Shown: positions 30,764 through 64,000, counted from the stretch's first letter. The stretch: DNA of 64,000 bases from a virus (IMGVR_UViG_3300044733_004704:67023-131022); one strand, 5' to 3'. Notes: generated from the sequence alone by a model not told the origin. A program made the numbers and translations.

Positions 30764-30775
30764 AGAATTATTCCA

Positions 30776-31363: not shown

Positions 31364-31549
31364 TCAGGTCGGAGCTGGTGAATTTGATCCAACTTTATTA
31401 TTTTGTTCAGTTAAATTCTTGCTTATAGAACTTAGTTTCTCATAAAGTTGACCAATAGCTACCAAATCTTGGGCCTTAAAAACGCCTCTTTGAGTAGCAA
31501 GATCAATAACCACCATAAGATTCTGAATATCACCTTGATTTAATTCCAT
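31364..31549 (-). CDS. small hypothetical protein (fibre-associated)
   Basis: IDLATQRGVFKAQDLVAIGQLYEKL; follows the fibre genes. Confidence 0.55.
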   Translation of the reverse strand: MELNQGDIQNLMVVIDLATQRGVFKAQDLVAIGQLYEKLSSISKNLTEQNNKVGSNSPAPT

Positions 31550-31560
31550 AATTTTTCCCC

Positions 31561-31884: not shown

Positions 31885-31885
31885 A

Positions 31886-50565: not shown

Positions 50566-50833
50566 TTGATTTTTTATTATCAGATATTAATTTGCTAAAA
50601 ACTGCTTCGTATGCGTTTTCGTTTCCTTCTATAAGAGAGTGATGAAATTTACACAAAGTGATTCCGTTATTTATATTATATCTCAAATCAACGCTATCAA
50701 CCCATCTTTTGATATGGTGAACATGTAATTTTTTAGATGCTAAACATCCTGGCCATTGACATTTGTATTGATCTCGTTTTTTAACCTCTTGTCTAAAAGT
50801 TTTGTATAATGGATCGTTATAATTTCTAAACAT
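50555..50833 (-). CDS. HNH endonuclease
   Basis: RDQYKCQWPGC...HVHHI...NGITLCKFHH; start taken at MFRNY. Confidence 0.85.
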   Translation of the reverse strand: MFRNYNDPLYKTFRQEVKKRDQYKCQWPGCLASKKLHVHHIKRWVDSVDLRYNINNGITLCKFHHSLIEGNENAYEAVFSKLISDNKKSNDK

Positions 50834-51818: not shown

Positions 51819-52641
51819 TGTGATTTTCCATAAATTCTGGTGTTAGTAATGGTACGTCCACAGTGTCGTCTTGATAAGTGTGATATTGTTGCATTCTTTC
51901 TTTGGCTCCGATTGCTGCCATTCCAAGAATTTCCATTTCTTTGCCTTCTTTTTCTCTTACTATTTCGTCTTCTAGCATTCGTATTAAACCAACCCAACTA
52001 CTTTTACCATCTTCTATTCTTTTTATTCTTTGTTCCCTAGTAGCTTTAAGATCTTTGCTAATTTTTTGTTGTTCGTTAAGAAGTTTGGTATATTCATTAG
52101 TGTAATTAGCGATACTGTTGCGGGCAAACGACAATTGAGTTTCGAGATTAGCCAATTTCGGTATATCTCTTTGATCCTCACTTTTTTCATACTCTTTGTC
52201 CACAAGCTTCTGTAATTTTTCAGTTTCGCTAATGTGTCTTTTTCGTTCTTTCATGCTGCGATTAATTAATATATCAATAGTGATAAATTGTTTAATTTGC
52301 AACTCTTCTGCTGGTAAAACATCTTCTCTAAACTGTTTTATTAGTCCAACCCAGGTATCTTCAAAGTATTGGAGTTCGCCGCTGTCCGCATCAAATTGAC
52401 GTGTAATTTCTACCCAAAAGGTTTTGCTATGTAATTTATCTTTTAGAGTTTCATAAGCCGCTTTGTCTTCTGGATCAATTAGTAAATTATTTTCATTAAT
52501 ATATCGCTTAATTGGTCCTTCGTGACGATTAAGATTAGAGGCTATAGCATCTATGCTTAATAAATTAACATTCTCACGAATATAAGCTTCTTCATCTAAA
52601 CTTAGTTGTCCTCGTTTTTTGGGAATTCTGCTGTTTTCCAA
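51811..52641 (-). CDS. hypothetical coiled-coil protein (terminase small subunit candidate)
   Basis: N-term HTH-like segment plus coiled coil; upstream of terL in the same operon. Confidence 0.45.
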   Translation of the reverse strand: MENSRIPKKRGQLSLDEEAYIRENVNLLSIDAIASNLNRHEGPIKRYINENNLLIDPEDKAAYETLKDKLHSKTFWVEITRQFDADSGELQYFEDTWVGLIKQFREDVLPAEELQIKQFITIDILINRSMKERKRHISETEKLQKLVDKEYEKSEDQRDIPKLANLETQLSFARNSIANYTNEYTKLLNEQQKISKDLKATREQRIKRIEDGKSSWVGLIRMLEDEIVREKEGKEMEILGMAAIGAKERMQQYHTYQDDTVDVPLLTPEFMENHNE

Positions 52642-53243
52642 TTGTGTTCCTCCATTATTTCCATAATATGTTTTTTAAGCTTGTTAAGATCGGACTTGTT
52701 AATTTTTTGATTGTGTTTTAGTTTTAGATAACTTTCTCTATATTCTGAGCGGATATTTTTGTCAAGAAAATTAACCATCTCGTTGTGCTCGTGAGAACCA
52801 TTAGGTGACGATGCTAAATTTAAGTCTTCAAAATAAGATGGTTTAGCAATATTCTTTTTAGCATCATTTCGTTTGGCCCACGAAGCGTATGGTTCGCATT
52901 CCTTTTTGTCAATAAATTTAGAGCACTGATTGTTAGAAACTTTATAAGTAGCATCGTATAGTGGACACGTTAAACAAGGCTTGTCGGGTCTTTGGTAGTT
53001 GTTTCTCTTGTAGTTAAATAATCGATTTCGCACATGAGTCCACAAAAAGTTTTCAAGGGGCCTTTTGTGATCATAATTTTTTAATCCTTCTAGTGCAAAT
53101 ATGGCCGCTTGTTGTTTCATATCCTCTATGCTATGATAGCCGAATTTAAATTTGTGAGCTAATCTTTTAGTAATTTTGTCTAAAACGGCTAAAAATTCGT
53201 CGTCACTCACCGCTTTGATGGTTTGATTTGTTTTTTTCTTCAT
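52602..53243 (-). CDS. sigma70-family (region 2) sigma-factor-like protein
   Basis: EDMKQQAAIFALEGLKNYD...LENFLWTHVRNRLFNYKR matches the region 2 pattern; Cys-rich insert. Confidence 0.7.
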   Translation of the reverse strand: MKKKTNQTIKAVSDDEFLAVLDKITKRLAHKFKFGYHSIEDMKQQAAIFALEGLKNYDHKRPLENFLWTHVRNRLFNYKRNNYQRPDKPCLTCPLYDATYKVSNNQCSKFIDKKECEPYASWAKRNDAKKNIAKPSYFEDLNLASSPNGSHEHNEMVNFLDKNIRSEYRESYLKLKHNQKINKSDLNKLKKHIMEIMEEHNWKTAEFPKNEDN

Positions 53244-53469: not shown

Positions 53470-53706
53470 ATGAGCTACAGAAAATGGGGTCAGGTTGAAT
53501 TGGATTTTATCCGTGATAATTTTAATGTTATTTCCGATGATGAGATTGCTGTACGATTGAGTCAAATAACAAATAGCAGTATTACTACTCCTATGGTGCG
53601 ACGACAAAGGCGCAAGCTTGGTATTCAAAAGCCACGAGGTCGTCAACCAAAGAACAAAAACGCCTCAATGCCCGCATCGTTTGCATCATCAAATGATAAT
53701 GGTTGA
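53470..53706 (+). CDS. small HTH-type DNA-binding protein
   Basis: GGGAGA RBS, WGQVELDFIRDN...DEIAVRL...VRRQRRKLGI. Confidence 0.65.
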   Translation: MSYRKWGQVELDFIRDNFNVISDDEIAVRLSQITNSSITTPMVRRQRRKLGIQKPRGRQPKNKNASMPASFASSNDNG

Positions 53707-54710: not shown

Positions 54711-55126
54711 ATATTAAACTTTTAGAAGCTACGGACAATATACAAGATTATATAGATTGTGTTAAAGACCTAAATAATCATTGTACTAAGTTGAGTTCAA
54801 TAGAAGATATTAAATATGTATTAGAGAACAGACCATCTAATATACTAACTTTTGTTATGGTAAACGACGATAGTAGGATAGTATCAACAGCTACTGTTAT
54901 TATGGAACAAAAGTTAAGATATCAAAATTTATGTATGCATATAGAAGATGTTGGTACCCATCCTAGCTTTAGAAATGCTGGATACGCATCAACTATTATT
55001 AAATATTGTATAGATTTAGCAAAAAATAAAGACTGTTATAGAATAAAATTAAGTTGTGAAAATAATCTAGTAGATTTTTATAAAAAACTAGGATTTAAAA
55101 TTCACGGTAATTTTATGTTTATGTAA
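54707..55126 (+). CDS. GNAT acetyltransferase (glucosamine-6-phosphate N-acetyltransferase-like)
   Basis: EQKL...HIEDV...FRNAGY...CYRIKLSC...FYKKLGF. Confidence 0.8.
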   Translation: MNIKLLEATDNIQDYIDCVKDLNNHCTKLSSIEDIKYVLENRPSNILTFVMVNDDSRIVSTATVIMEQKLRYQNLCMHIEDVGTHPSFRNAGYASTIIKYCIDLAKNKDCYRIKLSCENNLVDFYKKLGFKIHGNFMFM

Positions 55127-55127
55127 T

Positions 55128-55727
55128 TTACTCTTTGTCTAAATCTTCATCGTTGTCTGGTACTGGTTGATTAGCTAATAGTTTGCGAGACTTCTTAATA
55201 GCTCTAGTTACCATTATTCTACCGATCATATCAACAAATGGTAATCCTCGTCGTTTAGCTTCGTCTCTTAGCCAACCAACAATAGTATCAATGTTTTGTT
55301 CGCACCAATCGTTACCTTGTTCGTTCATTGCTAGAGCATGTCTTTTGCATGAACAACTATCACTCATATGAATACCAAGACTTTTTATCATTGTGGACAA
55401 TACTGTGCCAGGAGAGTGTGGATTTTCTTCCATTGTTGGATTAAACAATTTTCTCAAAACCTTACTAGGATTGTCTCCTAATAGAAATTTGATTCTATCA
55501 TTAAGTTGTTTTTTTGTCCAATCTCCAAGTTCGTCGTACTCATGGTCAGAATATAGAATTAGCGGCAAATCAAATTTTTCTATATCAACATGAATTGTTC
55601 TGTCTTGTGGATTATCTACATATGTAATATATAAAGTGTCTGTTTGTATGGGTTCAGGATGAGTTATTTTGCCGCTATGATCAGAGTATGGTGGTGGCTG
55701 AACACTTATTTTGCTATCTAGTTTCAT
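55128..55727 (-). CDS. hypothetical protein, paralog of 49515..50087
   Basis: Shared motifs; own TTGACA-N16-TATTAT promoter at 55769-55796. Confidence 0.7.
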   Translation of the reverse strand: MKLDSKISVQPPPYSDHSGKITHPEPIQTDTLYITYVDNPQDRTIHVDIEKFDLPLILYSDHEYDELGDWTKKQLNDRIKFLLGDNPSKVLRKLFNPTMEENPHSPGTVLSTMIKSLGIHMSDSCSCKRHALAMNEQGNDWCEQNIDTIVGWLRDEAKRRGLPFVDMIGRIMVTRAIKKSRKLLANQPVPDNDEDLDKE

Positions 55728-55894
55728 GATTTAGTATTCCTATGATATAAGAATTGATACTTTAGTATATAATAATTGCTTAGAATCTAGTGTCAATATA
55801 AAATTTATTATTAGTAAATAGGATGATCATTATAGTTTAGGTAAGACATTTATGTTGGTTTTGGCTTACTATGTTTAGACCACCGCCGGTTTTC

Positions 55895-55911
55895 TGCAAA
55901 ATCTGTGCCAA
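55895..55911 (-). promoter_or_regulatory. sigma54 -24/-12 promoter motif
   Basis: Minus strand TTGGCACAGATTTTGCA (GG-N10-GC). Confidence 0.65.
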
Positions 55912-55948
55912 ACCAAAAGAAAATGAAAAAACCCCCCTACTGAGCGGG

Positions 55949-56100
55949 TGACGCAAAATGCTGTGCAAAATGCTACAGTGTGACGCAAAATGCTACAGTG
56001 ATCCTTACCCCCGTCTCAAATTGAGAATGCTGTAACCCTATATTTTTCAAGGGGTTATGGAAAATCGTATTTTTTTTCTCGAATGGCACGACATTCGCAT
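55949..56100 (+). promoter_or_regulatory. sigma54 promoter module, copy 1
   Basis: 3x GCAAAATGC, TCTCAAATTGAGA, 11-7-11 palindrome at 56031-56059, TGGCACGACATTCGCAT at 56084. Confidence 0.6.
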
Positions 56101-56134
56101 ATATGTATGGCAACAAAGAAAGAGAGAAAGAAAA

Positions 56135-56365
56135 ATGGAAAACCTTATCGTCCTCAACACCGTTTCTGAACTTCGTGATCTGATCAATACCACGACGATG
56201 ACCACGTTTGTTGGTCGCGTTGCTTTTGCAATGGATCTTCTGGAAAGTGTTCGCCAGAATGACAACATGATCGAAATCAATCATGAGTTGGGATTCTGCG
56301 ATGATGGTGGATTCATCCAGATTGATGAGATGGGTTATGTGGTCGATGATTATGCGATCCAGTGA
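56135..56365 (+). CDS. small acidic hypothetical protein
   Basis: Purine-rich leader then MENLIVLNTV. Confidence 0.65.
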   Translation: MENLIVLNTVSELRDLINTTTMTTFVGRVAFAMDLLESVRQNDNMIEINHELGFCDDGGFIQIDEMGYVVDDYAIQ

Positions 56366-56366
56366 T

Positions 56367-56410
56367 TCCCTATAAGGGGGGTTGTGGCGGAAGAAAAGTT
56401 TGGTAGAATC
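56367..56410 (+). promoter_or_regulatory. repeated hairpin plus extended -10 promoter (also 57326-57370, 58421-58464)
   Basis: CCC..GGGGG-TTGWKG-N16 ending AAAGTTTGG-TAGRMT in three copies. Confidence 0.6.
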
Positions 56411-56432
56411 CTAGAAAGAAAGAGAGAAAAAG

Positions 56433-56618
56433 ATGGTTTACAATGTTGGTGATAGGTTGAGTGTGGTCTATAGCACTGGCGAATCGTTCACTGGTGAACT
56501 GGTTAGCGTTCGTGAGATTCCGAACAAGGGAACGTTGATTCTGGTCAACGATGATACGGTGGGCTATCGGTCCATGTATGCCGACAAGGTTGTGAGCGTG
56601 ATCGTGGAGAATGTTTGA
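56433..56618 (+). CDS. small SH3/Sm-like beta-barrel protein
   Basis: VGDRLSVVYSTGESFTGELVSV...YRSMYADKV. Confidence 0.6.
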   Translation: MVYNVGDRLSVVYSTGESFTGELVSVREIPNKGTLILVNDDTVGYRSMYADKVVSVIVENV

Positions 56619-56825
56619 ATGGATACTAACTACTTTCAATCATCGTTCGAGAGTATGGAAACGAGTACCATACGATTGTGGCTCCACGAAGCCCAAGTAC
56701 GACTGCCCCATGAGAGCGGTAGCGTTCGTGAAATACTGAAAGAAGGTATACGTGCGTCTGCTCGTGAACTGTTGTTCAGGTATCGAGAGGATATGAAAAG
56801 AATCTTTTCAAAAAACTCGACGTAA
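56619..56825 (+). CDS. hypothetical protein
   Basis: GGAG RBS; stop codon lies in arm 1 of 82-bp element A. Confidence 0.55.
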   Translation: MDTNYFQSSFESMETSTIRLWLHEAQVRLPHESGSVREILKEGIRASARELLFRYREDMKRIFSKNST

Positions 56826-56902
56826 ACCCTTGATATGTAAGGACTTACGGCGAAATTGGGCCGCCATTTTTGACGTAACTCCTTATGGTTCAAGCACTTA
56901 CG
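56821..56902. repeat. 82-bp double-palindrome element A
   Basis: CGTAAACCCTT GATATGT AAGGACTTACG N24 CGTAACTCCTT ATGGTTC AAGCACTTACG. Confidence 0.92.
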
Positions 56903-56918
56903 GCGACCCCAAAGGTAG

Positions 56919-57070
56919 TGTAGCAAAATGCTGTAGCAAAATGCGTCACCTGTAGCAAAATGCCTCACCTTGGCACACCCCCGTCTCAAAATGAGAATGA
57001 TGTAAAGTATTGTGGCGTAATGACTTAGGAAGAAAAAAAGATTTTTTGGTGAATGGCATGGGAAGTGCAT
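56919..57070 (+). promoter_or_regulatory. sigma54 promoter module, copy 2
   Basis: 3x GCAAAATGC, TCTCAAAATGAGA, palindrome at 57001-57029, TGGCATGGGAAGTGCAT at 57054; offset 970 bp from copy 1. Confidence 0.6.
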
Positions 57071-57103
57071 TATATAGAGACAAGAAAGAAAGAGAGAAAG
57101 AGA

Positions 57104-57322
57104 ATGAGAATGAGTCGTTATAGTTCAGCCCTTCGGTCCTATCGTGATGAGCGGTCTAACCGCCATCGTCATGTTCGTACTAACCTGTGGATCGTTTACC
57201 AGAATGGTAAGCGTATCGGCAAGGTTGGTGGAATCAGTGAGGGTGAAGCCCTTGCAAAGATTCCGCAGTCCTATAAGGACAACGGTCCTATCGAACTGGA
57301 AAGGGTCGTGATCGAAGAGTGA
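57104..57322 (+). CDS. hypothetical protein, paralog of 62669..62848
   Basis: WIVYQNGKRIGKV...SE..A...ER. Confidence 0.6.
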   Translation: MRMSRYSSALRSYRDERSNRHRHVRTNLWIVYQNGKRIGKVGGISEGEALAKIPQSYKDNGPIELERVVIEE

Positions 57323-57394
57323 TCCTTCCCCACAAGGGGGGTTGTGGTGGCGGAAAAGTTTGGTAGACTCACAGAATCACTAGGAGAAAAAGAG

Positions 57395-57712
57395 ATGGAA
57401 AAGTTTCGAATCGTTGAAGAATACAAGCGTACAGTTCGTGGTATCTTCTATGGTATGGCGATCCCTTGCGAAAAGCGTACCGCTGATGGTGGTATGATTA
57501 CCAGTGAGAAGGTATTGAAGTTCAATCGTTCAGCATTGCGAAAGATTGGCAAGCGTAGGATCGAAAAGGTTGATCCTCGCATAGTAGGTGGCGAGGATCG
57601 TATGCGTTTCCCCGTTGGCAAGCCCGGTTCCCCCGAAAGACTGGTTGCTCTTGCAGAGCAGTATGCTAGTTTAGCAGATGACGAGATGAGTCCCTTTATT
57701 GGAGATGAGTGA
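57395..57712 (+). CDS. hypothetical protein
   Basis: AGGAG RBS, MEKFRIVEEY..., GKPGSPER motif. Confidence 0.65.
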   Translation: MEKFRIVEEYKRTVRGIFYGMAIPCEKRTADGGMITSEKVLKFNRSALRKIGKRRIEKVDPRIVGGEDRMRFPVGKPGSPERLVALAEQYASLADDEMSPFIGDE

Positions 57713-57716
57713 GTAT

Positions 57717-57791
57717 ATGTTCACTGCGCTTTTGTTCACCCTGTCATACGTTGGCTTTCTGTATTGTATGCTAACTGCGGAAAAATCTTGA
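57717..57791 (+). CDS. 24-aa membrane peptide
   Basis: MFTALLFTLSYVGFLYCMLTAEKS, manual translation. Confidence 0.4.
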   Translation: MFTALLFTLSYVGFLYCMLTAEKS

Positions 57792-57822
57792 TCTAAGCCC
57801 TTACCTTCTAGATGAGTGAAAC

Positions 57823-58011
57823 ATGACGATTCAGATGGCGGTGGAAAAGACGTTGCTTCGTTTGATTGCGGTTCATGGTCATTCGGCCATGTATGTATGC
57901 GACTTGGGCGGCGATGTTAGTTTGTACACTGTGGGTGGCGTTCACTATGCTATTCGTGATGATGGTACGGCCCACGCTATTCACCCGGCCGAGGTATTTC
58001 CCACCCTGTAG
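57823..58011 (+). CDS. hypothetical protein
   Basis: 62-aa ORF ending 14 bp before element B. Confidence 0.55.
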   Translation: MTIQMAVEKTLLRLIAVHGHSAMYVCDLGGDVSLYTVGGVHYAIRDDGTAHAIHPAEVFPTL

Positions 58012-58025
58012 AGGGACGGACTCGA

Positions 58026-58107
58026 CGTAAAGTCTTGAGCCGTAAGGACTTATGGCGAAATCGGGCCCGTAATTTTGACGTAAGTGCTTATGAGACAATG
58101 ACTTACG
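58026..58107. repeat. 82-bp double-palindrome element B
   Basis: CGTAAAGTCTT GAGCCGT AAGGACTTATG N24 CGTAAGTGCTT ATGAGAC AATGACTTACG. Confidence 0.92.
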
Positions 58108-58129
58108 ACAAACTCTATACCATGATTTT

Positions 58130-58163
58130 TGGCATGAAAATTGCTCTAGCATATGGTGTGCCA
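58130..58163. promoter_or_regulatory. head-to-head pair of sigma54 motifs
   Basis: TGGCATGAAAATTGCT (+) and TGGCACACCATATGCT (-) separated by 2 bp. Confidence 0.55.
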
Positions 58164-58286
58164 ATATGGAAGAAAATTATGAAAAGTTTTGTCAAAATCT
58201 CTTGACACAAAAATTTCCAGATTTTTCTTGCACCCTAAAGAATCCATGGTATAATGTCGATATAAGAGAAAGAAAGAGAGAAAGAA

Positions 58287-58430
58287 ATGAGCAAGATTGA
58301 AGTTTACTATTCCGATTGCTGTGGTGTTGAGATTGTTGGTGATATCGCTGGTCTCGAATTGTGTCCCCGATGCTGGGAACACTGTGACTGCGTTATCGAG
58401 GAAATCGACGATCCATCATGCCCCGCCTAA
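58287..58430 (+). CDS. 47-aa Cys-rich Zn-ribbon-like protein
   Basis: SDCCG...CPRCWEHC; promoter TTGCAC-N16-TATAAT at 58228-58255. Confidence 0.6.
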   Translation: MSKIEVYYSDCCGVEIVGDIAGLELCPRCWEHCDCVIEEIDDPSCPA

Positions 58431-58486
58431 TGGGGGTTGATGCGGCGACAAAGTTTGGTAGGATTATAGAAAAGAAAAGGAAAGAG

Positions 58487-58585
58487 ATGTACAAGGATTT
58501 TCTTAGCAATCTGATTGTTTGTTTTCTGCTGTTTTGTTGGGCATATTTGTTCGTTCTGGTTCCCGCGTACTTTTTCTTTGGATAA
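58487..58585 (+). CDS. 32-aa membrane peptide
   Basis: MYKDFLSNLIVCFLLFCWAYLFVLVPAYFFFG, AAGGA RBS. Confidence 0.5.
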   Translation: MYKDFLSNLIVCFLLFCWAYLFVLVPAYFFFG

Positions 58586-58591
58586 AATAAT

Positions 58592-58780
58592 ATGAATAGC
58601 CTCGATAAAATTCTGTCTGCTATGCGAACTGGCAAGTATGGTAGCGTGGTGGATACTAAGGGTAAGATTCATGTTGGCATTATCAATTCACTATTGCGTG
58701 AAGATGGCAGTAATAAAAATTGGATTGTAACGGTGAGCAACCGTACAGTTACTGAACAAGTGTTCATTCATGCTAGTTAG
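58592..58780 (+). CDS. small beta-rich hypothetical protein
   Basis: 62-aa ORF ending 11 bp before element C. Confidence 0.6.
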   Translation: MNSLDKILSAMRTGKYGSVVDTKGKIHVGIINSLLREDGSNKNWIVTVSNRTVTEQVFIHAS

Positions 58781-58791
58781 GATTGTCTCGA

Positions 58792-58873
58792 CGTAAAGTC
58801 TTGAACCGTAAGGACTTATGGCGAGGCCGGGCAGCCCCCGGCGACGTAACTCCATATGGGACAAGCACTTACG
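58792..58873. repeat. 82-bp double-palindrome element C
   Basis: CGTAAAGTCTT GAACCGT AAGGACTTATG N24 CGTAACTCCAT ATGGGAC AAGCACTTACG. Confidence 0.92.
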
Positions 58874-58987
58874 ACGAGTAGCAGAGCAAACGCTGTGCCG
58901 CAAAAAATAATCTTTTTTCTAAGATTTTCTGCTTGACAGTGCCGATGATTAGTGTAGAATCCACGCATCACCCCAAGGGACTTTACA

Positions 58988-59164
58988 ATGTACGATTTCG
59001 AGGACATCAACGCGATTCTTGCTGATATGGCCGACGAGGGTATTCTGGAACCGATGGTCGAGCCGATTGATGAGAACGACTGCCACCCCCTCGACTGGGC
59101 GGAAGTGGTCGGTTGTGCGGACGATATTTTTGAAGAGATTTATCTTGACACGATGGGCTACTAG
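58988..59164 (+). CDS. 58-aa highly acidic protein
   Basis: MYDFEDINAILADMADEG...; no Lys/Arg; promoter TTGACA-N16-TAGAAT at 58933-58960, AAGGGA RBS. Confidence 0.65.
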   Translation: MYDFEDINAILADMADEGILEPMVEPIDENDCHPLDWAEVVGCADDIFEEIYLDTMGY

Positions 59165-59192
59165 TGGTATCTTAGTTGATAAGGAGAAAGTC

Positions 59193-59336
59193 ATGTATCA
59201 GACCATGTGGAAGATGTATCAGACCGGACAGATCACCGAGAGGAAGTGGCTGGTGTTCTGCGATTGGTACATGTGGAACTGTATCATGGTTCGGCCTGAG
59301 ATTGTTGAGATGATGGTTCGGATGAAGTATAACTGA
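59193..59336 (+). CDS. 47-aa hypothetical protein
   Basis: AAGGAG RBS; promoter TTGACA-N17-TATCTT at 59145-59173. Confidence 0.6.
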   Translation: MYQTMWKMYQTGQITERKWLVFCDWYMWNCIMVRPEIVEMMVRMKYN

Positions 59337-59348
59337 AAGGTAAAAGTC

Positions 59349-59621
59349 ATGAGTCACCCCGATCCACTGTATGATCCCGATAACTCTGAGGATGATGATA
59401 TGAATTATGATGATCACGACGATTTCTATCAAGAGGTCGAAGATTACAACGATTATTATATCGAAGAAAATAGCGTGGACGATGATGACGACTACGATGA
59501 TAGCATGGACGGCGACCATGATAGTGCCATGACTTCAGCCGGTTGGGGAACCGATGAGGATTATGGATCGTATCACGATGATATTGACGCTTATCACGAT
59601 TACTACGGGGAGGATTTCTGA
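59349..59621 (+). CDS. extremely acidic Asp/Tyr-rich protein
   Basis: About 40% Asp+Glu and no Lys/Arg by manual count. Confidence 0.7.
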   Translation: MSHPDPLYDPDNSEDDDMNYDDHDDFYQEVEDYNDYYIEENSVDDDDDYDDSMDGDHDSAMTSAGWGTDEDYGSYHDDIDAYHDYYGEDF

Positions 59622-59623
59622 AC

Positions 59624-59830
59624 ATGATCAATTACATGTGCGATAACATCACGGTTGACAACGATTCGGAAGATGGTATTTTTCTTGGAAACAAGATGGT
59701 TGTAATTTCTGTTCCAGCATGTACTAGTGCTGATCCTTTGGACAGGTATGACCACCTTGTGGCAATATCCGGAGCGTTGGAAAATGCTCTGGACTGCGGT
59801 GTACGCTCGTTCAGTTACAACAAACTTTGA
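59624..59830 (+). CDS. hypothetical protein
   Basis: GGAGG RBS; stop codon abuts element D. Confidence 0.55.
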   Translation: MINYMCDNITVDNDSEDGIFLGNKMVVISVPACTSADPLDRYDHLVAISGALENALDCGVRSFSYNKL

Positions 59831-59912
59831 CGCAAACCCTTGCTGCGTAAGGACTTACGACGCGGCGGGCGGGCCGATTTTGACGTAAGTCTTTATGCAC
59901 CAAGGACTTAGG
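59831..59912. repeat. 82-bp double-palindrome element D
   Basis: CGCAAACCCTT GCTGCGT AAGGACTTACG N24 CGTAAGTCTTT ATGCACC AAGGACTTAGG. Confidence 0.92.
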
Positions 59913-60003
59913 GCTAAAAAATAATTTTCGGATTTTTTGCTTGACAACCTAAAGTTCTTTTGATAGAATGCCGATAATAGAAGTAGAAGCAGAGGACAGA
60001 GCG

Positions 60004-60204
60004 ATGTTCATCATAATGAAAAGTTCACGGGCATATGAGGGTGCTACTCCCGCTAATGCTTACAGACAGCCCGAAACGTGTGCTTGTGCTGGTGTTGAGC
60101 CGGGCAAGGTGTACACTAGTAGGGAGTCTGCCAAGGTCGATGCCGACAAGTTGAGCGTATGCAATTCTGTCGGTTTTGTTGTTGTTGCTTGTTGTATGGA
60201 TTAA
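60004..60204 (+). CDS. hypothetical protein
   Basis: GAGGA RBS; promoter TTGACA-N17-TAGAAT at 59941-59969. Confidence 0.6.
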   Translation: MFIIMKSSRAYEGATPANAYRQPETCACAGVEPGKVYTSRESAKVDADKLSVCNSVGFVVVACCMD

Positions 60205-60304
60205 AGAGGAATCGGATGAAGTATAACTAAAGGAAAGATTTAACGATGAGAATCATTATAGATAATGGCCTTACTTATGAATGTTCTGAGTATCGCCCCA
60301 TCGC

Positions 60305-60386
60305 TCTAAGTTCTTGCTACCAAAGGACTTAGGGCGAGATGGGCGGGCCAATTTTGACGTAACTCCTTATGGATCAAGCACTTAGA
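60305..60386. repeat. 82-bp double-palindrome element E
   Basis: TCTAAGTTCTT GCTACCA AAGGACTTAGG N24 CGTAACTCCTT ATGGATC AAGCACTTAGA. Confidence 0.92.
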
Positions 60387-60438
60387 AAACATTACAGTTT
60401 TTCTTGACAAGTGTCGATAAGTATGGTATTCTAACATC

Positions 60439-60609
60439 ATGAGCAAGCGAAAAAAGAGTATCGTTGTGCAACTGAATGTGCGTCCGTTGTGGGCTATCGG
60501 CACGGGTCATCACGACCACAAGAGCGGAAGCGGACAGCACGACAATCGACCAAAGCGACTTCGCACTCGCGGAGCCAAGAATCGACAGGCCGTGAGGGAT
60601 GGTTGGTAG
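60439..60609 (+). CDS. 56-aa basic protein, probably leaderless
   Basis: MSKRKKS...GSGQHDNRPKRLRTRG; ATG 6 nt after the -10 of TTGACA-N17-TATTCT (60404-60432). Confidence 0.6.
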   Translation: MSKRKKSIVVQLNVRPLWAIGTGHHDHKSGSGQHDNRPKRLRTRGAKNRQAVRDGW

Positions 60610-60716
60610 TCCTACCTAATCCTACGGATTTGGATTGTGTGGATGTAGTCAGCCAAAAAATAGATCTCTTGACAAAATAGATTTCTCGACTAAAATATCG
60701 TTCAAAGGAGAAAACG

Positions 60717-61178
60717 ATGCTTACTCTTCGACATTTTCGTAAGATCGAGAAGGAAATCAAGGGACTGAAAAAGTGCCAAAGTATTTATAGCCGGAAAAAG
60801 AATGCTCTGTGCTATAAACTTTCTAAGATGGGTACTCAGCACAGGGCCAACGCTATTGAGCGTATGATTCGTGATTATTTAATCACTATGGGTAATAGGG
60901 TTGATTATTTTGGTGGTAATCATTCTTATGATATGGTTGTAAATGGAAAAAAGGTAGAAGTAAAGTCCTCCCTTGCACAACCCATATCTGGTAAAAAGTA
61001 TCGTTATAGGTTTCAAAATATCAAAAGTGGTTATTTTCACGAAATTATTTTAGTATTTGTTACCCCAAAGGGTATCAAGATCAAACGCATGAATAAAAAT
61101 CGTTTGGAAAATCAAATCAGATATGCTAAGTGTTATTCAAATGGTAAGACTTTAGAGTTAAAAGAACTAGCGGCCTAA
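60717..61178 (+). CDS. PD-(D/E)xK nuclease-like protein
   Basis: E...YDMVVNGKKVEVKSS motif; own promoter at 60669-60696; AAGGAG RBS. Confidence 0.65.
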   Translation: MLTLRHFRKIEKEIKGLKKCQSIYSRKKNALCYKLSKMGTQHRANAIERMIRDYLITMGNRVDYFGGNHSYDMVVNGKKVEVKSSLAQPISGKKYRYRFQNIKSGYFHEIILVFVTPKGIKIKRMNKNRLENQIRYAKCYSNGKTLELKELAA

Positions 61179-61239
61179 AGTTTTGGCTCTTGACAAACGA
61201 TAAAAACAATGTAGAATTGTGCAGAACAAGGAGGTTCTC

Positions 61240-61311
61240 ATGGATGGGGCAATTGTGCTTATTGTGGTGGTTATGATTATTGGTCTAATTGTGGAGATAT
61301 TGTGGAAATGA
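61240..61311 (+). CDS. 23-aa membrane peptide
   Basis: AAGGAGG RBS; MDGAIVLIVVVMIIGLIVEILWK; promoter at 61190-61217. Confidence 0.55.
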   Translation: MDGAIVLIVVVMIIGLIVEILWK

Positions 61312-61388
61312 TTAGTAGTTTTCATGCTTTTGTAATTATCTCTTGTGCTTTTATCATGTATTTTGCCATTATGACCGATAGTTTATAA
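61308..61388 (+). CDS. 26-aa membrane peptide
   Basis: ATGA overlap; MISSFHAFVIISCAFIMYFAIMTDSL; stop in arm 1 of element F. Confidence 0.45.
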   Translation: MISSFHAFVIISCAFIMYFAIMTDSL

Positions 61389-61465
61389 ATCCTTGTCCTG
61401 TAAGGACTTAGATCAAAACGGCGCGGCCCGGCTCGACGTAAGTGCTTGATTCTCAACAACTTGCA
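61384..61465. repeat. 82-bp double-palindrome element F
   Basis: TATAAATCCTT GTCCTGT AAGGACTTAGA N24 CGTAAGTGCTT GATTCTC AACAACTTGCA. Confidence 0.9.
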
Positions 61466-61543
61466 TCAAAAAAATTTTTCTAAAGATTACCTCTTGCGTT
61501 GGCCGATAAATATGGTATGCTTGAGACTCACCAACGGAGAAAG

Positions 61544-61855
61544 ATGATGACTCATTCTGAAGCGGTTAGGATGGTTCGTGGCAAGCGGAATGCGGAGCGT
61601 CGCAAGGTTGGCAACAATACCTACGCGGAGATTCTGAGCGATGGTAGCGTTGGAATCATGCTGCATAGTACCTATGTGGTCAAGATTCATGAGGATGGTA
61701 CTTATACCCTGAATAGTGGGGGTTGGCAAACCTTGACCACTAAGGATCGTATCAATCAGTATAGCCCGCGTTATGTTTTCCAGAAGAATTATGAATGGTT
61801 CGTGAAAATCAACGACAAGCCGTATCCGTTTATCGACGGGATGGTGGTGAGTTGA
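61544..61855 (+). CDS. hypothetical phage protein
   Basis: GGAGA RBS; TLNSGGWQTLTTKDRINQY; promoter at 61494-61521. Confidence 0.65.
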   Translation: MMTHSEAVRMVRGKRNAERRKVGNNTYAEILSDGSVGIMLHSTYVVKIHEDGTYTLNSGGWQTLTTKDRINQYSPRYVFQKNYEWFVKINDKPYPFIDGMVVS

Positions 61856-62049
61856 AAAATATCAACCAGATTTTGAAAGGATTGGGAAAACTTGGTTTTA
61901 GGGTAGAGTTTTGTGATGGTAGTTTGGTCAAGTTATATCCGGCAGATTCTAGCCAGCCTTTTTATTCATTACATGTGGGAGAACGTGCGATTCACCCGCT
62001 AAAGAGGTTTGCCAAGAAAAACTGGAATATCGAACTTGACAAGGTGTGA
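61852..62049 (+). CDS. HicA-like fold protein
   Basis: TTG start overlapping the previous stop; INQILKGLGKLGF....DGSLVKLYP...LH pattern. Confidence 0.45.
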   Translation: MKNINQILKGLGKLGFRVEFCDGSLVKLYPADSSQPFYSLHVGERAIHPLKRFAKKNWNIELDKV

Positions 62050-62096
62050 GATGATGGTATACTTGTGACATAAGGTAACTAACTGAAAGGAAAAAG

Positions 62097-62504
62097 ATGA
62101 ACGATTTTATTGCTGCTGCTCTGGTTTCTACGATTTGTCTGGTTGGTCTGGTCTGCTTTGTGTTGTTTCATATCTATCGTGGATTGAATGATTCGCTGAT
62201 TACTGCTAGGATCGGTAGTGTTTATAACTTTGAGTATGAACAGCCGGTTACTGGTGATCCTGAGCGTTTTATGGCTAAGGTACTTAGTGTGCATCGTCTT
62301 AGCAATGATAGTATCGCTAGGCTGAATGCTACTAGCCGTTATCGAAGACACGATGGACAGTTTGTGCGTACTCATCATCTGGTGACCGCTCAAACGCCGG
62401 ATGGTAAGATTCGCAATTTCTACGCCGAACGTACTCGCAATGTGCGTCGCCCCCTTTTGGGTGGTACGCTCTTCAAGAGTGGTTTGGCCGCTATGATGTT
62501 CTGA
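62097..62504 (+). CDS. membrane-anchored WYL/SH3-like protein
   Basis: N-term TM helix; YNFEYEQP..G..ER...LVTA...GKIRNFYAERTRNV; promoter at 62036-62063. Confidence 0.55.
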   Translation: MNDFIAAALVSTICLVGLVCFVLFHIYRGLNDSLITARIGSVYNFEYEQPVTGDPERFMAKVLSVHRLSNDSIARLNATSRYRRHDGQFVRTHHLVTAQTPDGKIRNFYAERTRNVRRPLLGGTLFKSGLAAMMF

Positions 62505-62519
62505 GTATCGCCCCATCGC

Positions 62520-62601
62520 TCTAAGTTCTTGCTAGTAAAGGACTTAGGGCGAGATGGGCGGGCCGGCCGCGACGTAAGTGCTTATTCATCAACCACTTAG
62601 G
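62520..62601. repeat. 82-bp double-palindrome element G
   Basis: TCTAAGTTCTT GCTAGTA AAGGACTTAGG N24 CGTAAGTGCTT ATTCATC AACCACTTAGG. Confidence 0.92.
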
Positions 62602-62668
62602 ATTTTCTAAAGAAAACCTCTTGACAAGCCGATACTATCTAGTAGAATGACTCGAACAGGAGAAAATT

Positions 62669-62848
62669 ATGAGTTATACTTGGGCCGTTTGGCAAAATAA
62701 TCGTCTGGTGGGTTATGTCGAGTCGTCTAGTGAATGGAATGCTATTAGATTAGCCCATAGCAATTATGGGTCTTGTTTGTATGTGGAACGATGTTTGGTT
62801 GGTGTTGGTCCAAAAAATCTTAAAGAAAATGTCTTGACAGGCCGATAA
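62669..62848 (+). CDS. 59-aa hypothetical protein, paralog of 57104..57322
   Basis: AGGAG RBS; WAVWQNNRLVGYVESSSEWNA...YVER; promoter at 62621-62648. Confidence 0.6.
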   Translation: MSYTWAVWQNNRLVGYVESSSEWNAIRLAHSNYGSCLYVERCLVGVGPKNLKENVLTGR

Positions 62849-62861
62849 TAGAGTGTAGAAT
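62834..62861 (+). promoter_or_regulatory. sigma70-type promoter driving the ncRNA array
   Basis: TTGACA-N16-TAGAAT with no RBS/ORF downstream. Confidence 0.75.
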
Positions 62862-62893
62862 ACGAGAGTTCGAAGCGATCATTGACAATACAA

Positions 62894-63040
62894 TAGGGAC
62901 TGCTAGGTTGCGTGAGCAACTTCCCCAAAGCCCAACTGCCTGCTACGGTGGGAAGAGGCGGGCAGTGAAGTAGATGGTCAAGTGGCGGGTCGAGGTGGTA
63001 GCACACTGTTGACAACCCAAAATGAATCCATCCGTCCCTA
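62894..63040 (+). ncRNA. structured tRNA-like RNA, unit 1
   Basis: Closing stem TAGGGAC/GTCCCTA; GTTGC-GTGA-GCAAC; ACTGCCTGC/GCGGGCAGT; GATGG/CCATC. Confidence 0.6.
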
Positions 63041-63042
63041 AA

Positions 63043-63145
63043 TAATGCGTAGGTTAAGCGTTGAGCAGCCAGCGGTGGCGGGAGTACTACCAACACCGTC
63101 CGCTAGACCACCAGAGGGAAGTGCGGGTAAAATCCCGTCGCATTA
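63043..63145 (+). ncRNA. structured tRNA-like RNA, unit 2
   Basis: Acceptor-like TAATGCG/CGCATTA, D-like GGTT/AGCC, AGCGG/CCGCT arm, T-like GCGGG-TAAAAT-CCCGT. Confidence 0.65.
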
Positions 63146-63154
63146 AAAACTTTC

Positions 63155-63288
63155 GTGGGTCCATGCCTTGGACTAGATTAGGATAAGCCATTACGATAAA
63201 CCTACGGCTGTTACGCAGCGTGGGGTTGCCAGCGGGCTTATACGTTGGATAGTAATGCTAATCTATGGGGGATCGCGTCCTCACCATG
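63155..63288 (+). ncRNA. structured four-way-junction RNA, unit 3
   Basis: GTGGG/CCCAT, TCC/GGA, TAGATTAG/CTAATCTA enclosing ATAAGCC/GGCTTAT, TGGGGG/TCCTCA. Confidence 0.6.
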
Positions 63289-63301
63289 AGCAATACAATA
63301 T

Positions 63302-63445
63302 GGGGTTATAAGGTAGTTCCCAAAAGGTTCTGATCAAACTTTTTGATAAATATACCGAATAGATACGTGAACCTATTAGCATATGAACCATGGTTTTAGT
63401 GTGCTAATAATGTAACGGCGGGTTTGAATCCCGATAACCTCTCCA
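63302..63445 (+). ncRNA. enlarged tRNA-like RNA with 3' CCA, unit 4
   Basis: GGGGTTA/TAACCTC-T-CCA, GGTA/TACC D-like stem, AATAG/CTATT arm, AGCATAT/GTGTGCT variable arm, CGGG-TTTGAAT-CCCG T arm. Confidence 0.7.
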
Positions 63446-63451
63446 TTACAA

Positions 63452-63505
63452 TAGATAGGCGGAGTAACTGAGGCGCTCCATCGTATGTGTGTCCCGGCCT
63501 GTCTA
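63452..63505 (+). ncRNA. structured RNA, unit 5
   Basis: TAGATAGGC/GCCTGTCTA closing stem, GGAGT/GCTCC inner stem. Confidence 0.5.
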
Positions 63506-63512
63506 CAATACA

Positions 63513-63594
63513 ACCAGTAACCGTTCCCAAGAGCCAGACGATATGAGTCATGAACATATCTAGGGAGGATTTCCGTGGACGGTTTCTTACTGGT
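63513..63594 (+). ncRNA. structured RNA, unit 6
   Basis: ACCAGTAA/TTACTGGT, CCGTTC/GGACGG, GATATG/CATATC. Confidence 0.5.
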
Positions 63595-63607
63595 CCGTAA
63601 CAGGGCT

Positions 63608-63652
63608 ACCAGTAAGGCTAGAATCGGGGCGTAAAAGATTCGCTGGTTTTTT
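63608..63652 (+). terminator. terminator-like hairpin closing the ncRNA array
   Basis: ACCAGT..GAATC/GATTC-GCTGGT followed by a T run. Confidence 0.45.
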
Positions 63653-63702
63653 CCTATTGACTTGACGATAACTAAGAGTATAATGGTGGAAAAGGAGATA
63701 AA

Positions 63703-63939
63703 ATGACCGTTAACGAACTGATTGAGCAGTTGAAGAGTTATCCATCAGATATGAGGGTTCTTACTCTTGGTTATGAGGGTGGGTATGATGATATCAACCT
63801 CAAGACTAAGGATATTATTTTCAATGTGAATAGTAAGGATACTTGGTATCTTGGTAGCCATGACGAACCGGGCATGGTGAATAATATGGATAATGATGAA
63901 ACCGGAACAAAGTGTGTTGTTATTGTGAGAACAGCATGA
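63703..63939 (+). CDS. hypothetical phage protein
   Basis: AAGGAG RBS; MTVNELIEQLKSYPSDMRV..GYEGG; promoter TTGACT-N16-TATAAT at 63657-63684. Confidence 0.7.
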   Translation: MTVNELIEQLKSYPSDMRVLTLGYEGGYDDINLKTKDIIFNVNSKDTWYLGSHDEPGMVNNMDNDETGTKCVVIVRTA

Positions 63940-64000
63940 AAGTTTACGTTGTATTTGATATTCCCGGTATTGATCCAGACGATGAAGATGCTGACGAGAT
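63936..64000 (+). CDS. hypothetical protein, partial
   Basis: ATGA overlap; MKVYVVFDIPGIDPDDEDADE open to the window end. Confidence 0.45.
   Translation, partial: MKVYVVFDIPGIDPDDEDADE

What the first reader, a model, noticed from the sequence alone, without database searches (positions are those of the whole stretch)
56821..62601. Seven exactly 82-bp double-palindrome elements divide the accessory region into cassette-like units
Seen: copies at 56821, 58026, 58792, 59831, 60305, 61384 and 62520. Every copy is arm(11)-N7-arm(11)-N24-arm(11)-N7-arm(11), with arm consensus CGTAAGTCCTT / AAGGACTTACG. The spacers vary in sequence but never in length, so the palindrome centres are always 53 bp apart (about 5 helical turns). 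The two palindromes are mutually inverted (spacers G....T/A and mostly AT....C), so the whole element is a dyad. Each copy starts within ~15 bp of an ORF stop (inside arm 1 for A and F, abutting it for D; E instead truncates a short ORF) and is followed by a promoter. This gives 0.47-1.2 kb units of promoter plus 1-4 tiny ORFs plus element. Established: tyrosine recombinase core sites are inverted arms around a 6-8 bp spacer, and integron attC sites have the four-arm R''-L''-loop-L'-R' layout downstream of ORFs. Inference: this is either a phage gene-cassette array reshuffled by site-specific recombination or a phased nucleoprotein scaffold. No recombinase gene is in the window, and the arms lack the attC GTTRRRY core.
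Basis: partly seen in the sequence, partly recalled or inferred. Interest (0 to 1): 0.9.

Follow-up and report, generated by a model that had tools for sequence, protein, structure and literature searches.

The report
Phased twin-palindrome boundary elements, phage early genes
Seven rigid 82-base DNA elements between the small early genes of an uncultured lake phage look like paired docking sites for a DNA-bending protein, sit in helical register with the next promoter, and mark where related phages gain, lose or swap gene units.

Summary
All seven copies have the 11-7-11-24-11-7-11 layout, and the 131-kb phage record has no others. They belong to a large family: 531 copies in 117 IMG/VR loci plus the window, 517 without any indel.

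The element behaves as double-stranded DNA, not as a folded strand. Pairing is no commoner than chance, and real copies fold no better than column-shuffled chimeras.

Between orthologues the arms diverge 3-5.5% against 18-25% for the spacers. The distance to the next sigma-70-type -35 box falls into classes of 18, 28-29, 39-40, 49-51 and 59-63 bp, from either end of the element.

Homology between relatives switches at the element edges, and hybrid elements occur. No integrase, resolvase or Y1 transposase is in the record.

Best reading: paired palindromic protein sites with IHF/HU-type geometry form a phased module upstream of early promoters. They also serve as crossover points for homologous exchange, like T4 PeSLs. 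Site-specific recombination is not supported.

This scan reported the same 82-bp family on other genomes before. My literature searches found no description of it.

The parts
56821..56902 (+). Element A (82 bp, four arms). The stop of ORF 56619-56825 lies in arm 1. It is followed by a sigma-54-type module.
58026..58107 (+). Element B. Its left half is nearly identical to that of C.
58792..58873 (+). Element C. A promoter (TTGACA-16-TAGAAT) starts at 58933, 59 bp after the element.
59831..59912 (+). Element D, which abuts the stop of ORF 59624-59830. A promoter starts at 59941, 28 bp after the element.
60305..60386 (+). Element E. Its left half and upstream bases are shared with G. A promoter starts at 60404, 17 bp after the element. 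The unit D-end to E is absent in L008 and L095, where one hybrid element stands.
61384..61465 (+). Element F, the most degenerate right palindrome. It is followed 28 bp later by a weak promoter-like site with a CCGATA spacer motif, judged by eye.
62520..62601 (+). Element G. A promoter starts at 62621, 19 bp after the element.
56031..56059 (+). Single 11-7-11 palindrome of the same kind. Its centre lies about 65 bp upstream of the predicted start of a sigma-54-type promoter (TGGCAC-N5-TCGCA, 56084-56099), between that promoter and three GCAAAATGC boxes.
57001..57029 (+). Second single palindrome, in the same position relative to TGGCAT-N5-GTGCA (57054-57069). It is conserved in L008, L095, L103 and L115.
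55900..64000 (+). GC-rich island (about 44% against 33% for the genome) of small ORFan genes, all on the + strand. It holds at least 8 near-consensus sigma-70-type promoters and runs off the end of the record.

Best explanation
Each element is a dyad-symmetric site on double-stranded DNA made of two 29-bp palindromes whose centres lie 53 bp (five helical turns) apart around a GC-rich core. Each palindrome most likely docks a dimeric DNA-bending protein. The geometry fits the IHF/HU family, so the binder is probably supplied by the host. The bound pair forms a fixed nucleoprotein module at the upstream edge of an early transcription unit, on a set face of the helix relative to the next host-type promoter.

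Its likely role is to shape or insulate strong early promoters, and perhaps to time them. Because the same conserved arms recur every 0.5-1.2 kb, they also act as preferred crossover points for ordinary homologous recombination. Small early genes are therefore gained, lost and swapped as units, as described for PeSLs in T4-type phages.

Shown: the architecture, the selection on the arms, the lack of selection for pairing, the phasing, and the breakpoints. Inferred: that a protein binds, which protein it is, and the effect on transcription.
For: (1) Family and rigidity. There are 531 copies in 117 IMG/VR loci plus the window, and 517 have no indel. In two complete relatives the pattern scan finds copies only in one GC-rich island of about 17-20 kb. 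The finer profile scan of those islands gives 15 and 25 copies. All 16 and 30 strong promoters there lie on one strand.

(2) DNA, not a fold. Over 425 unique copies the top 45 mutual-information pairs are all at most three columns apart. Watson-Crick frequency equals the independence expectation for both the local hairpins and the whole dyad. Positions 6/24, 7/23, 61/75 and 62/74 are mostly non-complementary. Real copies fold no better than column-sampled chimeras on either strand.

(3) Footprint. In 169 orthologous pairs the arms diverge 0.03-0.055, the spacers 0.18-0.25, the centre 0.14 and the flanks 0.09-0.12.

(4) Link to a promoter. Of 460 copies, 65% have a promoter scoring at least 10 of 12 within 200 nt downstream on the same strand, against 5% on the other strand.

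(5) Helical phasing. Distances from the element end to the -35 box cluster at 18, 28-29, 39-40, 49-51, 59-63 and 71-73 bp. With one copy for each of 134 sequence clusters, R = 0.49 at a period of 11.0, and 0 of 5000 jittered nulls reach that value. The same distance classes appear from the arm-1 side in 46 reverse-oriented cases.

(6) IHF-type geometry. The most invariant bases are TAA/TTA and the TT/AA steps, giving YAA-N4-T|T, then 9 bp, then A|A-N4-TTR. In IHF complexes WATCAR lies between two kinks 9 bp apart and TTR lies in the flank (bioRxiv 10.1101/382655, passages read). Single palindromes sit about 65 bp upstream of two sigma-54-type promoters, between enhancer-like boxes and the promoter.

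(7) Exchange. Breakpoints are enriched at the element edges. Hybrid D/E elements occur in L008 and in a contig of run X23. Within a locus, copies share parts in a mosaic way: 67 of 1138 pairs share one or two parts and 0 share all three.
Against: No binding was tested, and the record has no HU/IHF gene (PF00216), so the binder is only inferred.

The WAT part of the IHF consensus is absent. The C of CAA is present in only 51-67% of outer arms and 12-18% of inner arms. The inner arms (AAGGAC) are more conserved than an indirect-readout IHF site would need, which may point to a dedicated protein instead.

The host is unknown. The 12 genome-contig hits are lake and other environmental MAG contigs with mixed taxon labels.

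At least 5 near-consensus promoters in the window lack an element, and 35% of elements lack a strong sigma-70 promoter within 200 nt.

The phasing could partly reflect phased A/T tracts and UP-element sequence in the spacer rather than a protein. The copies are related to each other, so the statistics overstate independence. Most homology breakpoints (about 83%) lie away from the elements.
Confidence: 0.55

Rival explanations
1. The sites are bound by a dedicated phage-encoded regulator rather than by host IHF/HU. This could be, for example, an early-to-middle switch repressor or an activator that co-regulates the whole early island, possibly by looping between neighbouring elements.
For: The inner arms are conserved more strongly than the IHF consensus requires. 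Single palindromes in other loci overlap the -35 box or the start site of sigma-70 promoters, which are operator-like positions. Elements occur only in the early island. A conserved 78-aa protein is encoded just upstream of the island (53470-53706). It is found in 28 loci and folds as a three-helix DNA-binding bundle with an RGRP tail. Its best fold match is the GcrA DNA-binding domain 5yiu (probability 0.97, but E 0.49).
Against: No link between that protein and the sites was tested. The fold match is weak by E-value, and Pfam gave no family for it. The promoters are near consensus with UP-like tracts and would not need an activator.
Confidence: 0.25
2. The element acts at the RNA level, as a factor-dependent terminator, an RNA 3'-end stabiliser or a processing site at the end of each early transcript.
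For: The element starts a median of 9.5 bp after the upstream stop codon (crude ORF calls). The island has many strong promoters but no excess of intrinsic terminators (6 found against 6.3 expected). The 82 nt can fold at about -24 kcal/mol. In PeSLs the equivalent part is a terminator stem-loop (PMC2839356, passages read).
Against: There is no covariation, and real copies are no more stable than chimeras. The middle of each arm is mismatched in a conserved way. No U-tract follows either hairpin. The element works in both orientations, with the same spacing classes to the promoter. The helical phasing is a property of DNA. The RNA-library runs were available only as contigs and say nothing about 3' ends.
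Confidence: 0.08
3. The elements are site-specific recombination sites (tyrosine-recombinase-like cores, or folded attC/CTX-attP-like sites) that a recombinase uses to excise and insert cassettes.
For: The 11-7-11 form resembles tyrosine-recombinase core sites, a point I recall and did not test. Units are gained and lost with a single hybrid element left behind. Breakpoints are enriched at the element edges.
Against: Phage_integrase, Resolvase and Y1_Tnp gave no match in the about 90% complete record. Spacers differ between copies, so canonical strand exchange between them would fail. Exchange points are spread over left, centre and right parts. There is no support for a folded strand. The cassettes carry their own promoters. 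The phasing to promoters is not explained by this reading.
Confidence: 0.05
4. The elements are selfish MITE- or REP/BIME-like repeats that spread through the island and have no function for the phage.
For: Copies are many, intergenic and palindromic. In G003 they are strikingly homogeneous within one genome.
Against: The arms are conserved 3-6 times better than the spacers in orthologues, and the length is invariant in 517 of 531 copies. Copies are confined to one island. They are phased to promoters. No Y1 transposase was found.
Confidence: 0.03

Closest known systems
PeSLs (promoter-early stem-loops) of T4-type phages (Arbiol et al. 2010, PMC2839356, passages read; Comeau et al. 2014, PMC4122927, abstract and outline read)
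   Same: Both are composite intergenic modules in a hyperplastic early region: a GC-rich symmetric element, then an AT-rich tract, then a sigma-70-type early promoter. Both flank ORFans. In both, indels and replacements between relatives are bounded by the modules, chimeric modules are left behind, and no dedicated recombinase is present.
   Different: This element is a rigid 82-bp four-arm unit with conserved sequence and drifting spacers, not a stem-loop of variable sequence. It shows no selection for pairing. It is helically phased at variable multiples of about 10.6-11 bp from the promoter. It occurs in a different, uncultured lake phage clade with a 4746-aa tape measure protein. Terminator activity and mini-circles, shown for PeSLs, were not tested here.
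IHF binding sites (consensus WATCARnnnnTTR, two kinks 9 bp apart; bioRxiv 10.1101/382655, passages read). The use of such sites upstream of sigma-54 and some sigma-70 promoters is recalled.
   Same: AA-N4-TTR is present in all four arms. The TT/AA steps lie 9 bp apart. The invariant TT of TTR is the best conserved position of the element. A single site stands about 65 bp upstream of sigma-54-type promoters. The sites are phased to promoters.
   Different: These sites are two-fold symmetric, lack the WAT part and carry conserved extra bases (GGAC). They come in rigid pairs 53 bp apart around a GC core, and are repeated 7 to about 25 times per genome.
Integron attC sites and gene cassettes
   Same: Both have a four-arm layout directly after an ORF stop, and arrays of small-gene units.
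   Different: There is no integrase. The element lacks the GTTRRRY core. Its length is fixed rather than variable. There is no evidence for a folded strand. The units have their own promoters.
REP/BIME elements of enterobacteria, including IHF-containing BIMEs (recalled, not checked in a paper here)
   Same: Both are pairs of inverted palindromic units at the 3' ends of transcription units, and both are candidate sites for architectural proteins.
   Different: No RAYT transposase was found, the sequence motif is different, and copies are confined to one phage island and phased to promoters.
Phage phi29 p4/p6 nucleoprotein hairpin at early and late promoters (PMC3100819, seen in a search listing only)
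   Same: Both involve the idea that phased protein sites bend promoter DNA into a fixed complex that controls early promoters.
   Different: The sites are unrelated, phi29 has a single locus, and its proteins are known and phage-encoded.

Membership tests
Integron (attC cassette array) | IntI-type tyrosine recombinase encoded next to the array | tested here: not met
   PF00589 gave no match in the 131-kb record, which is about 90% complete; the control rang in 14 of 14 genomes.
Integron (attC cassette array) | R''/R' cores RYYYAAC and GTTRRRY, with variable attC length | tested here: not met
   The arm consensus is CGTAAGTCCTT / AAGGACTTACG. 517 of 531 copies have the identical length.
Integron (attC cassette array) | Conserved folded single-strand structure | tested here: not met
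   Whole-dyad pairing equals the independence expectation, and real copies fold no better than chimeras.
Integron (attC cassette array) | Mostly promoterless cassettes read from a common promoter | tested here: not met
   65% of 460 elements are followed by their own promoter scoring at least 10 of 12. The window has 8 promoters scoring 11 of 12.
PeSL-type regulatory cassette | Sigma-70-type early promoter with an AT-rich upstream tract next to a GC-rich symmetric element | tested here: met
PeSL-type regulatory cassette | The element is a stable stem-loop that terminates transcription | tested here: inconclusive
   The element can fold, but there is no selection for pairing and no U-tract. Termination cannot be tested with contigs alone.
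PeSL-type regulatory cassette | Lies in a hyperplastic region flanking ORFans, with indels and replacements bounded by the modules | tested here: met
   The genes are ORFans. Breakpoints are enriched at the element edges and hybrid elements occur.
PeSL-type regulatory cassette | Sequence relatedness to PeSLs, or a T4-type host phage | not tested
   No PeSL sequence was compared. The phage has a giant tape measure protein and is not obviously T4-like.
IHF/HU-type binding site | WATCAR-N4-TTR consensus | tested here: inconclusive
   AA-N4-TTR is present in all arms at 88-100% per base. C precedes AA in 51-67% of outer arms and 12-18% of inner arms. WAT is not conserved.
IHF/HU-type binding site | Two kink steps 9 bp apart with a flank clamp on TTR | tested here: met
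   The T10|T11 and A19|A20 steps are 9 bp apart, with TTR 4 bp outside each. This was compared with passages of 10.1101/382655. It is a match of geometry only.
IHF/HU-type binding site | Binding and bending by the protein | not testable with these tools
   Needs EMSA, footprinting or bending assays.
Tyrosine-recombinase core site (dif/lox type) | Inverted arms around a 6-8 bp spacer | tested here: met
   The layout is 11-7-11 in both halves. This is form only.
Tyrosine-recombinase core site (dif/lox type) | Cognate recombinase, and matching spacers in partner sites | tested here: not met
   No recombinase was found. Spacer columns carry about 0-0.6 bits, and spacers differ between copies of one genome.
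Intrinsic terminator | GC-rich hairpin followed by a U-tract | tested here: not met
   The flanks after each palindrome read nCAAn. Terminator-like sites number 6 against 6.3 expected, and none lies on the + strand at a unit end.
REP/BIME | Associated RAYT (Y1) transposase and spread over the genome | tested here: not met
   PF01797 gave no match. Copies are confined to one island.
Rfam RNA family | Match to a curated covariance model | tested here: not met
   There were 0 matches at the gathering threshold over the window and 0 at E up to 1 over 55500-64000.

The most novel reading that the evidence does not exclude
The twin palindromes are more than passive homology. They would be the working parts of a phage boundary-element system in which a bound protein complex sets up each early promoter on a fixed DNA face and also actively promotes exchange of the gene unit between elements. 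That would make it an integrase-free functional analogue of an integron, spread through a large clade of uncultured lake phages.
Probability: 0.1. Interest if true: 0.85.

Novelty: new variant of a known kind. Interest (0 to 1): 0.6.

Why it matters
Early "host-takeover" and anti-defence genes of large phages are the fastest-changing part of their genomes, and how they are regulated and reshuffled is poorly understood outside T4.

This element offers a defined, testable handle on that question. It is a rigid DNA motif more conserved than the genes around it. It is present 7 to about 25 times per genome in a clade with records of about 120-230 kb, two of them complete. It is tied by helical phase to host-type promoters and coincides with the joints of gene exchange.

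If a host bending protein is the binder, these phages depend on it for their first minutes of infection. The motif would then be a marker for early regions, and a hint to host biology, in uncultured phages.

Tried and rejected
RNA family searches found nothing. blastn of the stretch against 50,697 deposited phage genomes found nothing.

The folded-strand readings (two hairpins, or one long hairpin) were examined and set aside because there is no covariation and no extra stability.

An intrinsic terminator was set aside because no U-tract follows either hairpin.

The genome-contig scan, run to find a host, gave only 12 MAG contigs with mixed taxon labels. I read these as mis-binned phage contigs, so no host could be named.

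Public runs: 22 lake-water DNA runs and 2 RNA-library runs hold the stretch, but all four runs that I laid were contigs. They give no RNA ends, strand or level. Contig breaks at elements may come from repeats or from strain variation and prove nothing. Parts without cover are not evidence.

Pfam and PHROGs gave no family for most ORFs of the island; of those tested, only 61499-61855 (Kyano_Gp96, phrog_554) matched clearly.

The model of the most widespread island protein (57395-57712) had pLDDT 71 and pTM 0.32, and I did not search with it.

The crude ORF calls put 115 elements 'inside' spurious ORFs, so I used GC skew and promoters instead to judge orientation.

In one search the lookup of the L095 element picked the wrong copy, so only the L008 comparison is used.

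Literature searches that found no description of this family are 0 papers; listings read. Supplementary files of papers were not consulted.

Full report
**Setting**

The window is the last 64 kb of a single 131,022-bp IMG/VR virus record, classed as linear and about 90% complete by CheckV. It is a tailed phage. It has a 4746-aa tape measure protein, a portal and a large terminase on the minus strand. The other half of the record carries ribonucleotide reductase, a DnaB-type helicase and a DNA polymerase split by an HNH endonuclease.

The genome has 33% G+C, but window 56000-64000 has about 44%, with a sharp switch near 56000. Several independent contigs cross that switch at 87-93% identity (L103, L095, L008), so the junction is not an assembly chimera.

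**The observation**

All seven copies stand at the stated coordinates with the layout 11-7-11-24-11-7-11. The consensus palindrome with up to 3 mismatches matches 6 times, against 0 in 100 shuffles. A looser 20-position pattern finds 7 sites in the whole record, all in this stretch; the backwards control pattern finds 1.

The arms are imperfect, with 2-4 mismatches per palindrome. Each arm position has its own consensus, and arm 2 (AAGGACTTA) is invariant.

Promoters scoring at least 10 of 12 follow C, D, E and G. A is followed by a sigma-54-type module. B and F are followed by weaker matches, judged by eye.

**A large family**

One or two of these (L006, L047) look like chance matches.

A profile built from 145 seed copies found 531 elements in those 117 loci (974 kb) plus the window, and 517 of them have no indel.

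All 5 contigs that I tested carry a homologue of the window's terminase, at 42-78% identity. On those five, the family looks confined to one clade.

In two complete relatives (200 kb and 229 kb) the pattern scan finds copies only in one island of about 17-20 kb and nowhere else. The finer profile scan of those islands gives 15 and 25 copies. The islands are GC-rich, and all 16 and 30 strong promoters there lie on one strand.

The genome-contig scan gave only 12 MAG contigs with mixed taxon labels, so no host can be named. 22 lake-water DNA runs hold the stretch.

**DNA site or folded strand?**

I worked with 425 unique full copies. The information profile shows near-invariant TAA, CTT, AAG and TTA in every arm, a GC-rich centre (G38 to C45) and almost random N7 spacers.

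- The 45 strongest mutual-information pairs are all at most three columns apart.
- For the two local hairpins and for the whole dyad, the share of Watson-Crick pairs equals what independent columns would give.
- Positions 6/24, 7/23, 61/75 and 62/74 are mostly non-complementary.
- Real copies fold no better than chimeras sampled column by column, on either strand and for every sub-structure. The centre folds no better than its own shuffles.
- No U-tract follows either palindrome.

The palindromy is therefore a by-product of four conserved half-sites, not a selected fold.

**Selection**

In 169 orthologous pairs the arms differ at 3-5.5% of sites. The spacers differ at 18-25%, the centre at 14% and the flanks at 9-12%. 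The length almost never changes.

**Context**

By GC skew, about 95% of 422 copies lie between co-directional genes, and 80-88% point the same way as those genes. The rule is not strict: in one complete relative 10 of 25 copies are reversed although every promoter is on one strand.

With crude ORF calls, the element starts a median of 9.5 bp after the upstream stop. Of 460 copies, 65% have a sigma-70-type promoter scoring at least 10 of 12 within 200 nt downstream on the same strand. The figures are 5% on the other strand and 3.7% upstream on the same strand. About 10% are followed instead by a sigma-54-type box.

**Helical phasing**

The number of bases from the element end to the -35 hexamer is quantised. 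The peaks are at 17-19, 28-29, 39-40, 49-51, 59-63 and 71-73 bp, with near-empty troughs between them.

Taking one copy from each of 134 clusters of different downstream sequence, the resultant length is 0.49 at a period of 11.0, and 0 of 5000 jittered nulls reach it. The signal survives when the two largest peaks are removed: 0 of 5000 for distances of 34 bp or more, and p = 0.024 for 45 bp or more.

The 46 reverse-oriented cases show the same classes measured from arm 1. The 53 bp between the two palindrome centres is five turns at 10.6 bp per turn.

The 28-bp class of spacer reads like a full UP element, a consensus I recall and did not check. In the window, C, D, E and G fall in the 59, 28, 17 and 19 classes.

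Phasing is a property of the double helix. It argues for a complex on the element that is read together with RNA polymerase at the promoter. Phased A/T tracts in the spacer may contribute to the signal.

**Who binds?**

The passages I read of bioRxiv 10.1101/382655 say three things. IHF kinks DNA at two steps 9 bp apart. WATCAR lies between the kinks, with one kink inside the consensus. TTR lies in the flank and is common to all known sites.

Each palindrome here reads YAA-N4-T|T, then 9 bp, then A|A-N4-TTR. This is a two-fold symmetric version of that plan, and the TT of TTR and the TT/AA steps are the most invariant bases of the element.

Two single palindromes in the window are centred about 65 bp upstream of the predicted starts of sigma-54-type promoters (TGGCAC-N5-TCGCA and TGGCAT-N5-GTGCA). 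They lie between those promoters and three GCAAAATGC boxes. From memory, this is the classical place of an IHF site.

Several points count against IHF:
- The WAT part of the consensus is missing.
- The C of CAA is frequent only in the outer arms.
- The inner arms carry conserved extra bases.
- The record has no HU/IHF gene, so the protein would have to come from the host.

A phage protein remains possible. Single palindromes in other loci overlap a -35 box or a start site like operators. A conserved 78-aa protein just upstream of the island models as a three-helix bundle with an RGRP tail, and its best fold match is the GcrA DNA-binding domain (probability 0.97, E 0.49). Nothing links it to the sites.

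**Cassette exchange**

The unit between D and E (59912 to about 60322, with ORF 59968-60204) is absent from L095 and L008. In L008 a single hybrid element remains, D-like on the left and E-like on the right, with the switch in arm 3 or spacer 2. A contig of run X23 shows the same joint, 59891 to 60375.

I collected 2473 ends of alignments of at least 300 bp and at least 75% identity between loci. Of these, 97 fall in the 10 bp before the element and 108 in the 10 bp at its end, against about 16 expected per bin. This is what is expected if the neighbouring units differ while the element itself aligns.

Within a locus, 67 of 1138 pairs of copies share one or two near-identical parts out of left, centre and right, and none shares all three.

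Other changes lie elsewhere:
- A small ORF at 59195-59336.
- A 0.7-kb insertion at 55098-55825.
- ORF shuffling at a second intergenic repeat.

About 83% of alignment ends are not near an element.

No Phage_integrase, Resolvase or Y1_Tnp gene is in the record. Spacers differ between copies, so a canonical tyrosine recombinase could not exchange them. The pattern fits homologous recombination at conserved regulatory sequence, as proposed for PeSLs (PMC2839356, passages read; PMC4122927, abstract read).

**Comparison and novelty**

The closest known system is the PeSL. It has the same logic: a GC-rich symmetric element, an AT-rich tract and a sigma-70 early promoter flanking ORFans in a hyperplastic region, with chimeric modules at indels. 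The differences are the rigid four-arm sequence, the lack of a selected stem-loop, the helical phasing and the phage clade.

It is not an integron, not a REP/BIME element, not an intrinsic terminator and not a known Rfam family (see the membership table).

My paper searches gave no description of the element. Supplementary files were not seen.

This scan has reported the same 82-bp family, and 72-79-bp relatives, on other genomes with similar conclusions. I treated those notes as leads and re-derived each point on this window's own data.

**Verdict**

I put 0.55 on a phased, double-stranded protein-docking module, with an IHF/HU-type bender as the leading candidate, that also serves as a homologous crossover point. 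I put 0.25 on a dedicated phage regulator as the binder, and less on the RNA, recombinase and selfish-repeat readings.

Noticed in passing
window 55947-56110 and 56915-57080: Two sigma-54-type promoter modules in a phage. Each has three GCAAAATGC palindromes, TCTCAAAWTGAGA, a single 11-7-11 palindrome, and then TGGCAC-N5-TCGCA or TGGCAT-N5-GTGCA. The record has no Sigma54_activat gene. 44 of 460 elements in relatives are followed by a similar box.
   Followed up: partly
window 56366-56436, 57326-57398, 58428-58489: A second intergenic repeat (GGGGGTTG..GCGG..AAAGTTTGGTAG) lies between ORFs inside units. Contigs of runs X23 and X24 join 56363 to 58450 at it, and L008 has ORFs reshuffled there.
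   Followed up: partly
window 58939-58950, 62629-62634, 62842-62847, and most array promoters in the loci: A conserved CCGATA motif lies inside the -35/-10 spacer of the early promoters, or just after the -10 box.
   Followed up: no
window 62862-63652: About 790 bp have no credible ORF, directly after a consensus promoter (62834-62861). No Rfam match was found, even at E up to 1.
   Followed up: no
window 56000-64000; L134-L137: The early island is a GC-rich patch (41-50% against 29-36% in the flanks) in this phage and in two complete relatives. The reason is unknown.
   Followed up: partly
window 53470-53706: A conserved 78-aa protein models as a three-helix bundle (pLDDT above 90) with a basic RGRP tail. 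Its best fold match is the GcrA DNA-binding domain (5yiu, probability 0.97, E 0.49). It is a candidate DNA binder at the edge of the island.
   Followed up: partly
window 55098-55825: A 0.7-kb stretch with a 199-aa ORF on the minus strand is absent from the close relatives L103 and L095. The ORF has no Pfam or PHROG family.
   Followed up: no
window 50077-50833 and 52602-53243: An ERCC4-domain nuclease and a small HNH protein lie next to the terminase, and there is a 213-aa protein with a weak Sigma70_r2 match (E 2e-4, below the cut-off).
   Followed up: no
own record 27152-32640 (L131): The DNA polymerase is split into three ORFs, with an HNH/endonuclease ORF between the first two.
   Followed up: no
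loci L005, L025, L027, L038, L055, L065, L104, L114 (spacer between element and -35 box): A mini-palindrome, CCTTAC(G)-N4-6-GTAAGG, is built from the outer arm bases in the opposite order. It recurs between the element and the promoter.
   Followed up: no
window 59349-59621: A 90-aa extremely acidic ORF (rich in D, E and Y) belongs to a family present in 34 loci. It may be a DNA mimic; this was not tested.
   Followed up: no
G003:C1:28587-43190: In this relative most of the 14 copies share nearly the same spacers and centre. This points to recent spread or homogenisation within one genome.
   Followed up: no
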